Assembly: GCF_044704955.1 (NCBI RefSeq)
Contig: NC_091995.1
Span: 52,886,001 to 52,950,000, forward strand
Reading direction: 5' to 3'
Source: Pristiophorus japonicus
Lineage: Eukaryota
DNA: 64,000 nucleotides
Both the position numbers and the translations under genes were made by a program. A model generated the notes under the pieces. It was not told the DNA's origin and made no database searches. It saw only the letters and a list, made by a program, of their open reading frames with translations. Shown one piece after another: positions 60,963-61,238 of this stretch. Position 1 is the stretch's first letter; each line of letters opens with the position of its first letter.

Positions 60963-61238
60963 CTTTCCTTTTGAGATACTTGTTTCCAATTCGCAAATAT
61001 AACTTTAAAAGGTGAACAAGTTCTTCCTCCATCTGCCATTTCCAATACTTATTCCAGGAATCGTCAAAATTCCATTTCTCCTTGGTTTTCACTCCAAAGT
61101 CATTGGTTGCGACCCACCTCATTCTGTTTGGCTCTAAAGTAATAAAATCCTTTCCATCATATCCAAACCGCATCGATCTCTTAATGGAGTCGTTGTCAGT
61201 GACATCAACTGTCCTTATCCATTGGAAAATGTGAATTC
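60963..61238 (-). CDS. MHC class I-like alpha2 exon, 276 bp
   Basis: gacag|GA ATT CAC..AAA G|gtattt, phase 1-1; GIHIFQ..FGYDGKDFI..W..TKEKW..LKLYLRIG; splices in frame to alpha3 (KRK-DQPEV). Confidence 0.93.

What the first reader, a model, noticed from the sequence alone, without database searches (positions are those of the whole stretch)
60963..61238. MHC class I alpha2 lacking the canonical disulfide, with a remodelled aromatic groove
Seen: an open exon with good splice sites and no cysteine. By hand alignment to HLA-A2 numbering, C101 is Val (QWIRTVDV vs QRMYGCDV) and C164 is Leu (MEEELVHLL vs LEGTCVEWL), so both partners are replaced by aliphatics. C-terminal anchors T143/K146/W147 (KTKEKW) and Y171 are kept, while Y159>Q and W167>L are lost. 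The helix is Trp-rich (SWNKYWKW) and position 97 is Trp. Established: the C101-C164 bond is near-invariant in class I and class I-like proteins. Inference: paired replacement in a clean ORF suggests a functional non-classical lineage with a non-standard ligand rather than decay.
Basis: partly seen in the sequence, partly recalled or inferred. Interest (0 to 1): 0.75.

Follow-up and report, generated by a model that had tools for sequence, protein, structure and literature searches.

The report
Shark immune gene lacking a disulfide
This is an intact, spliced shark immune-display gene (non-classical MHC class I) that lacks a normally conserved disulfide bond, but the loss is shared by a large shark-wide gene family, most likely the already described UEA lineage, so it is a new member of a known kind whose ligand is still unknown.

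Summary
The minus-strand exon 60963-61238 is an MHC class I alpha2 exon with AG/GT ends, no cysteine, V at 101 and L at 164. It belongs to a complete gene: alpha3, transmembrane and two tail exons lie downstream. A 100%-identical Pristiophorus japonicus protein model supplies leader and alpha1. Contigs from three public runs splice alpha2 to alpha3 exactly, so it is not a pseudogene. The loss is not special to this gene: 0 of 87 shark homologue domains have C101 (9 keep C164), whereas 146 of 152 other class I domains have both. The family is one clade (100/100), multicopy, found only in sharks among named hits, and lies on the catshark MHC chromosome. A published query file (PMC10751288) already holds a nurse-shark orthologue and dogfish UCA, both without the two cysteines. 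By elimination the family is UEA (Almeida 2021, not readable here). The gene keeps 5 of 9 peptide anchors and has a Trp-rich, fairly apolar groove, which likely holds a small hydrophobic non-peptide ligand. No ligand or structure was found. Interest is low.

The parts
60963..61238 (-). alpha2 exon of an MHC class Ib heavy chain, no cysteine
   Evidence: covered with 0 differences by contigs of 3 of 3 runs
61207..61209 (-). codon at HLA-A2 position 101, Val instead of Cys
   Evidence: numbering
61018..61020 (-). codon at HLA-A2 position 164, Leu instead of Cys
   Evidence: numbering
56315..60962 (-). alpha2-alpha3 intron, 4648 nt, GT..AG, containing reverse-transcriptase (LINE-like) fragments
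   Evidence: joint 56314-60963 in runs X1, X2, X3; ORFs (LINE-like by my reading)
56036..56314 (-). alpha3 exon (Ig C1-set), both canonical cysteines kept
48057..48170 (-). connecting peptide and transmembrane exon, 114 nt
   Evidence: the loose end at 33739 matches its 3' end and a 114-nt gap fits it in the 1628-nt contig
33672..33737 (-). first cytoplasmic exon, 66 nt
32956..33558 (-). last exon: 15 further codons, stop at 33509-33511, then 3' UTR to at least 32956
   Evidence: joint 33558-33672 in 3 of 3 runs, and contig pieces
61239..64000 (-). 3' part of the alpha1-alpha2 intron; alpha1 and leader exons lie beyond the window end
   Evidence: no alpha1 hit in the window; model P0004 has leader and alpha1; about 289 nt of contig lie upstream of alpha2

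Best explanation
The exon is the alpha2 domain of an intact, spliced non-classical MHC class I gene of a sawshark, one member of a multicopy shark-wide family that lacks the C101-C164 bond and is most likely the described UEA lineage, whose protein likely pairs with beta2-microglobulin and likely displays a small hydrophobic, non-peptide ligand. Shown: exon structure, splicing, family-wide loss of C101, monophyly, and an old sub-lineage shared with Heptranchias, Heterodontus, Mustelus and Chiloscyllium. Inferred: (1) C101 was lost in the family ancestor, and hydrophobic packing of V101 against L/F/Y164 replaces the bond. (2) The N-terminal (A) pocket anchors are gone (Y7V, Y59D, Y159Q, W167L; also R/Y84W), so conventional 8-10-mer binding is unlikely. 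(3) An almost invariant Trp wall (W147, W152, W156, mostly W97) fills the middle and C-terminal part of the groove, leaving a smaller apolar cavity on the A side; R70 and R99 in this sub-lineage could hold an anionic group. (4) The helix stretch that the bond normally pins (158-170) is the most variable part among paralogues, so each sub-lineage would have its own ligand or receptor. The likely outcome is display to innate-like T cells or NK-type receptors, as for MR1, chicken YF1 or Xenopus XNC. I put about 0.85 on UEA membership and about 0.5 on a small hydrophobic ligand.
For: Identity and wholeness: P0004 matches alpha2, alpha3 and TM at 100%. Splicing: joints with GT..AG ends in 3 of 3 runs. 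A 1628-nt contig of run X2 (same length and depth in both calls) carries alpha2, alpha3, a 114-nt gap fitting TM, and both tail exons. Family: C101 in 0 of 87 and C164 in 9 of 87 domains covering both sites, against both Cys in 146 of 152 other class I domains. Clade 100/100 against 12 other class I rows, which keep the cysteines. Sub-lineage 100/99. Up to 12 distinct alpha1-alpha2 sequences per species. Literature: sharks have two expanded Ib families, UBA and UEA; UDA, UFA and UGA are single-copy (PMC12562908, passage). UEA is multicopy beside UDA in the MHC (PMC10751288 section 9). Published UBA, UDA, UFA and UGA queries keep both Cys. A nurse-shark query labelled 'UCA' lacks both and matches this gene at 61 of 92 alpha2 and 61 of 87 alpha1 residues (my count by eye). 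Catshark members share a contig length (163,470,629) with LOC119975565, listed as MHC-Ib on chromosome 13. Groove: 5 of 9 anchors; 21 of 38 positions apolar, against 15.2 in four classical-like and 13.0 in six UDA-like proteins; W147 95/96, W152 92/96, W156 94/96; entropy 2.2-2.8 bits at 158, 159, 162-164, 166, 167 and 170, against 0-0.1 at 147, 152 and 156. Model: canonical platform with pLDDT 80-94 over residues 21-190, Z about 23 to class I, MR1 and YF1. beta2m-contact residues Q96, D119-G120, D122, R234-P235, D238 and Q242 are kept (read; the list of contacts is recalled).
Against: No sequence labelled UEA was available: 'UEA' has 0 hits in the supplement, the matching query is labelled UCA, and the UEA paper is not held, so the name rests on elimination. 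The groove is not extremely hydrophobic: 27 of 114 control proteins have equal or higher mean hydropathy and 13 of 114 as many apolar residues. T143, K146, W147, F123 and Y171 are kept, which suits a peptide C-terminus. The fold search does not separate ligand classes: peptide-binding class I, MR1 and YF1 tie within 1 Z unit at rmsd about 7 A, and AlphaFold would likely give this fold whatever the true stability. The kind of the three runs is not on record and they are one study.
Confidence: 0.75

Rival explanations
1. Same family, but it binds peptides in a non-standard way: the C-terminus is held by T143/K146/W147 and the N-terminal end is open or overhanging (long or modified peptides).
For: K146 86/96, W147 95/96, T143 70/96 and Y171 67/96 are kept family-wide. 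Groove hydropathy is within the control range. Xenopus XNC4 is said to bind 12-16-mers (PMC12562908 section 7, unpublished data cited there).
Against: Y7 is lost in most members (V in 45 of 68). Y159 is kept in 20 of 96. The Trp at 84, 97, 152 and 156 would crowd the groove (inferred; no cavity calculation was possible).
Confidence: 0.3
2. Same family, but the groove is collapsed and empty and the protein works as a ligand or receptor in its own right, like MICA, HFE or FcRn (mechanisms recalled).
For: Six Trp among 38 groove positions. An untethered alpha2 helix could move inward (inference).
Against: Groove-facing positions differ between long-lived sub-lineages, which fits ligand specificity better than an empty groove.
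Confidence: 0.2
3. The family is a shark lineage distinct from UEA that has not been named, or it is simply UCA in a broad sense.
For: The only matching published query is labelled UCA. No UEA-labelled sequence was seen.
Against: Dogfish UCA proper shares only 29 of 92 alpha2 residues (count by eye). Only two expanded families are reported and this one is not UBA. The orthologue was listed among 'previously reported' genes.
Confidence: 0.1
4. A decaying pseudogene.
For: The last exon appears to have switched acceptor and the older, longer tail frame is now broken. Introns are full of repeats.
Against: All exons are open, splice sites are canonical and used in 3 of 3 runs, and orthologues keep 61-75% alpha2 identity across shark orders.
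Confidence: 0.03

Closest known systems
Shark UEA non-classical class I lineage (Almeida et al. 2021, J Immunol 207:824; seen only as a citation and through PMC10751288 and PMC12562908; abstract details recalled)
   Same: Expanded multicopy shark Ib family, on the MHC chromosome with UDA, old sub-lineages, loss of several peptide anchors and a fairly hydrophobic groove (the last two features recalled).
   Different: None shown. This is a sawshark member with a short cytoplasmic tail. Whether the paper states the disulfide loss could not be checked.
Nurse shark transcript 'Gcirratum_UCA_NODE_26056' (PMC10751288 Supplemental File 10)
   Same: V101, L164, W97, Q159, K146/W147, Y171; 66% alpha2 and 70% alpha1 identity by eye; nearly the same as bamboo-shark P0065, which is in the window gene's sub-lineage.
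   Different: I143 instead of T143; labelled UCA in that file.
Spiny dogfish UCA (AF515705, in the same file; original description by Wang et al. 2003 recalled, not read)
   Same: Both alpha2 cysteines absent (Val at both sites), W97.
   Different: About 32% alpha2 identity; lacks K146/W147 and Y171; alpha3 clearly different.
Xenopus XNC (mhc1-uba) family
   Same: Expanded, clustered, oligomorphic Ib family with member-specific grooves. Species-wise homogenisation of alpha3 in XNC is recalled.
   Different: Independent origin; cysteine status not tested here.
MR1 and chicken YF1
   Same: Class I fold with a non-peptide ligand in an aromatic or apolar pocket; tie with classical class I in the fold search.
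   Different: About 27% identity, not orthologous; the MR1 and YF1 chains are expected to keep the alpha2 disulfide (recalled).

Membership tests
MHC class I heavy chain | alpha1-alpha2-alpha3-TM-cytoplasmic on one chain | tested here: met
   alpha2 to tail exons in the window; alpha1 from the identical model P0004, outside the window
Classical class Ia (UAA) | nine peptide-anchor residues | tested here: not met
   5 of 9
Classical class Ia (UAA) | C101-C164 disulfide | tested here: not met
Classical class Ia (UAA) | high allelic polymorphism | tested here: inconclusive
   0 differences in alpha2 in 3 runs, while 3' UTR differences vary by run; number of individuals unknown
UEA | expanded multicopy shark family other than UBA | tested here: met
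   2-12 distinct alpha1-alpha2 sequences in each of 13 species; published UBA queries keep both Cys
UEA | MHC-linked, in the Ib cluster with UDA | tested here: inconclusive
   same chromosome-sized contig as UDA-like genes in catshark and Mustelus; position within the cluster not mapped; no neighbouring gene recognised in the window
UEA | present in sharks, not rays or chimaeras (recalled from the abstract) | tested here: met
   all named family hits are sharks (one hit unnamed); ray hits are 33-36% identical and keep the cysteines; word-based searches can miss relatives
UEA | anchors partly lost, relatively hydrophobic groove (recalled) | tested here: met
   family mean hydropathy +0.07 against -0.47 (classical-like, n=4) and -0.76 (UDA-like, n=6); 2-7 anchors kept; effect moderate
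UEA | clusters with sequences named UEA by the authors | not testable with these tools
   paper not held; no UEA label in the supplement
UCA in the strict sense (dogfish) | both alpha2 cysteines absent | tested here: met
UCA in the strict sense (dogfish) | orthology to AF515705 | tested here: inconclusive
   29 of 92 alpha2 residues by eye; sequence not retrieved by any search, so not placed in a tree
UBA, UDA, UFA, UGA | lineage sequences keep C101 and C164 and form separate clades | tested here: not met
   all published queries of these four keep both Cys; UDA-like clade is separate, 100/100
W-category | two-domain alpha and beta chains in class II layout | tested here: not met
   three extracellular domains on one chain; definition from PMC9586880 passage

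The most novel reading that the evidence does not exclude
The UCA/UEA group is a large, old class I radiation that folds and functions without the alpha2 disulfide, and losing the bond is what freed the 158-170 helix to diversify. Each sub-lineage would then present its own small hydrophobic or anionic ligand, while leader and alpha3 exons are continually homogenised within each species. If this has not been stated in print, the family is a natural test of what the C101-C164 bond does in class I folding and loading, and may reveal an undescribed ligand class.
Probability: 0.15. Interest if true: 0.5.

Novelty: new member of a known kind. Interest (0 to 1): 0.2.

Why it matters
As a discovery it matters little: the lineage and cysteine-less sequences are already published. 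What remains open is how a class I platform works without a bond described as conserved and late-forming in the peptide-loading complex (PMC9359109, passages), and what these shark molecules bind. No family member was found among solved structures (best PDB hits are other class I proteins). This gene is a reasonable test object because it is intact, spliced and belongs to a sub-lineage kept across shark orders.

Tried and rejected
No whole genome is held, so alpha1, the leader and neighbouring genes could not be mapped, and dN/dS could not be computed without orthologue DNA. The two primary papers (UEA, PMC8454915; UDA, PMC7002201) are not held. Nine literature searches found no text stating the disulfide loss in shark Ib genes; because the primary papers and their supplements were not visible, this does not show the point is unpublished. 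No RNA holder is listed by record; the three runs found are of unrecorded kind, and only their spliced joints are used. Dogfish UCA was not retrieved or 69 (motif check covered proteins up), so it is compared by eye only. Fold searches confirm the fold but do not discriminate ligand class; the rmsd of about 7 A probably reflects alpha3 placement without beta2m (inference). A complex prediction with beta2m was not run: no shark beta2m was in hand and such a textbook pair would pass by likeness. The W-category beta chain and pseudogene readings were rejected (see membership and rivals). A shared alpha3 exon spliced to several alpha1-alpha2 cassettes was considered: the window holds one alpha2 and one alpha3 only, and the sawshark paralogue models have slightly different alpha3 sequences, so duplication with homogenisation is preferred, though not proven. 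Rows dropped before counts: of 110 proteins, 8 had no alpha2 hit and 7 domains under 45% identity were set aside as other lineages; 87 of 96 family domains covered both sites. Trees used 68 of 70 full-length proteins (2 duplicate isoforms dropped), and 24 of the 68 in the outgroup tree. In that tree the joining of two ray proteins to the family is a long-branch meeting and is not used.

Full report
Observation. The stretch 60963-61238 is closed in the first frame of either strand but lies inside an open minus-strand frame 60943-61266. With canonical AG and GT ends it forms a 276-nt phase-1 exon. Pfam MHC_I matches at E 1.8e-12, and 455 PDB sequences match at E up to 0.01, led by class I alpha2 domains. 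The domain has no Cys and six Trp.

The gene. A UniRef protein named for Pristiophorus japonicus, P0004 (365 aa), is identical over alpha2. Mapped back, it gives alpha3 at 56036-56314, the transmembrane exon at 48057-48170 and two tail exons near 33.5-33.7 kb. Leader and alpha1 are in the model but not in the window, so they lie beyond 64000. Three public runs of unrecorded kind, from one study, were laid on the gene. In all three a contig joins 60963 to 56314, skipping 4648 nt with GT..AG ends and no mismatch in the exons, and joins 33672 to 33558. In run X2 a 1628-nt contig, with the same length and depth in both calls, holds about 289 nt upstream of alpha2 (room for alpha1 and part of the leader, inferred), alpha2, alpha3, a 114-nt gap fitting the TM exon, both tail exons and a 3' UTR. 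Such joints are what spliced mRNA gives. The pseudogene reading is rejected.

The family. Three homologue searches returned about 100 relatives, most at about 50-79% identity, all from sharks where named: Heptranchias, Pristiophorus, Heterodontus, Scyliorhinus, Mustelus, Carcharodon, Cetorhinus, Stegostoma, Rhincodon, Chiloscyllium and Hemiscyllium. Among 87 alpha2 domains covering both sites, none has C101, nine have C164 and none has both. As a control, 146 of 152 alpha2 domains of other class I representatives have both cysteines, 6 have one and none lacks both. Position 101 is always aliphatic, whereas 164 is among the most variable sites. Many of its residues (F, Y, S, G, W) are one base change from Cys, which fits loss of C101 first and later drift (inference). 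The family is one clade at 100/100 against 12 other class I proteins. The window gene sits in a five-member sub-lineage (100/99) with Heptranchias, Heterodontus, Mustelus and Chiloscyllium genes, so it predates the split of the two shark superorders (taxonomy recalled).

What is published. Verissimo et al. [quoted passage not shown] A 2025 review (PMC12562908; passages and section 7 read) says sharks have two expanded Ib families, UBA and UEA, and single-copy UDA, UFA and UGA. Supplemental File 10 of the first paper lists previously reported class I queries. There, UAA, UBA, UDA, UFA and UGA all keep C101 and C164. Dogfish UCA (AF515705) and a nurse-shark transcript labelled UCA lack both, as does a very divergent query labelled UHA. 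By my count by eye the nurse-shark transcript matches the window gene at 61 of 92 alpha2 and 61 of 87 alpha1 residues, and dogfish UCA at 29 of 92. Catshark family members share a contig length with LOC119975565, which the supplement lists as MHC-Ib on chromosome 13. The white-shark members lie on a 115.8-Mb contig, compatible with chromosome 19, whose gene list runs past 112 Mb. An expanded, shark-only, MHC-linked family that is not UBA and is distant from dogfish UCA is, by elimination, UEA. The UEA paper itself could not be read, and no sequence labelled UEA was seen, so the name is an inference (about 0.85). I cannot say whether that paper or its supplements state the disulfide loss.

Mechanism. 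The protein keeps 5 of 9 peptide anchors (F123, T143, K146, W147, Y171) and loses Y7, Y59, R/Y84 and Y159, plus W167. At 38 groove positions it has 21 apolar residues and 6 Trp. Only 2 of 114 control proteins reach 6 Trp, but 27 of 114 are as hydrophobic on average and the total aromatic count is ordinary. W147, W152 and W156 are nearly invariant in the family, while helix positions 158-170, around the missing cysteine, are the most variable. An AlphaFold model gives a canonical platform at pLDDT 80-94. It matches peptide-binding class I, MR1 and YF1 equally (Z about 23, rmsd about 7 A), so it says nothing on ligand. The alpha3 disulfide, the N86 glycan site (N86 in 68 of 68) and the beta2m-contact residues are kept. 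I therefore favour a beta2m-associated surface molecule, stabilised by hydrophobic packing in place of the bond, that holds a small hydrophobic or amphipathic ligand in the opened A-side pocket (about 0.5). Non-standard peptide binding (about 0.3) and an empty groove (about 0.2) remain. None of this is tested.

Side result. Groove exons and non-groove exons have different histories. The nearest neighbour is from the same species for 14 of 68 alpha1, 20 of 68 alpha2 and 50 of 68 alpha3 domains, and mean alpha3 identity is 0.94 within and 0.87 between species. The alpha3 tree groups by species or family (few columns, weak support), and leaders carry species-specific variants shared across sub-lineages and even with UDA-like genes. 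This points to concerted evolution of leader and alpha3 around old alpha1-alpha2 modules. A similar pattern is recalled for Xenopus XNC and may already be described for UEA.

Verdict. The feature is real and the gene is functional, but it is a sawshark member of a described lineage in which the loss is general and visible in published sequences. Earlier notes of this scan on other genomes reached the same reading; they were seen after my own tests and are not counted as support. Novelty: new member of a known kind. Interest 0.2.

Noticed in passing
P0004 family, alignments: Leader and alpha3 are homogenised within shark species while alpha1-alpha2 sub-lineages cross species; UDA-like proteins P0150 and P0154 carry the same leader as the family.
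   Followed up: partly
window 33215-33570, minus strand: The last exon is spliced at 33558 and gives a short tail. Another frame starting about 11 nt upstream resembles the long cytoplasmic tail of catshark P0006 and is interrupted by a frameshift near 33330, suggesting an acceptor shift shortened the sawshark tail. Paralogue model P0018 has the same short tail.
   Followed up: partly
PMC10751288 Supplemental File 10: A very divergent query labelled UHA (P. amandae) also lacks both alpha2 cysteines, apparently a separate case.
   Followed up: no
P0003, P0053, P0282, P0038: Database models with two class I units in tandem or fused to an unrelated protein; probably read-through or annotation merges in tightly packed clusters.
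   Followed up: no
window 51367-54234, minus strand: Broken gag-protease-RT-RNaseH-like frames of an LTR retroelement (by my reading) inside the alpha3-TM intron; a similar element appears near 22365-24878 on the plus strand.
   Followed up: no
window 36612-42776; 47097-48028; 141-771; 20446-21195; 49390-49589: Tandem arrays of 37 bp (166 copies), 83 bp (11 copies, next to the TM exon), 26 bp and 29 bp, and a 200-N assembly gap inside the gene's alpha3-TM intron.
   Followed up: no
P0217, P0247, P0146, P0143, P0203: A few unrelated class I representatives have lost one of the two alpha2 cysteines (two with Val at 101), so single losses recur in other lineages.
   Followed up: no
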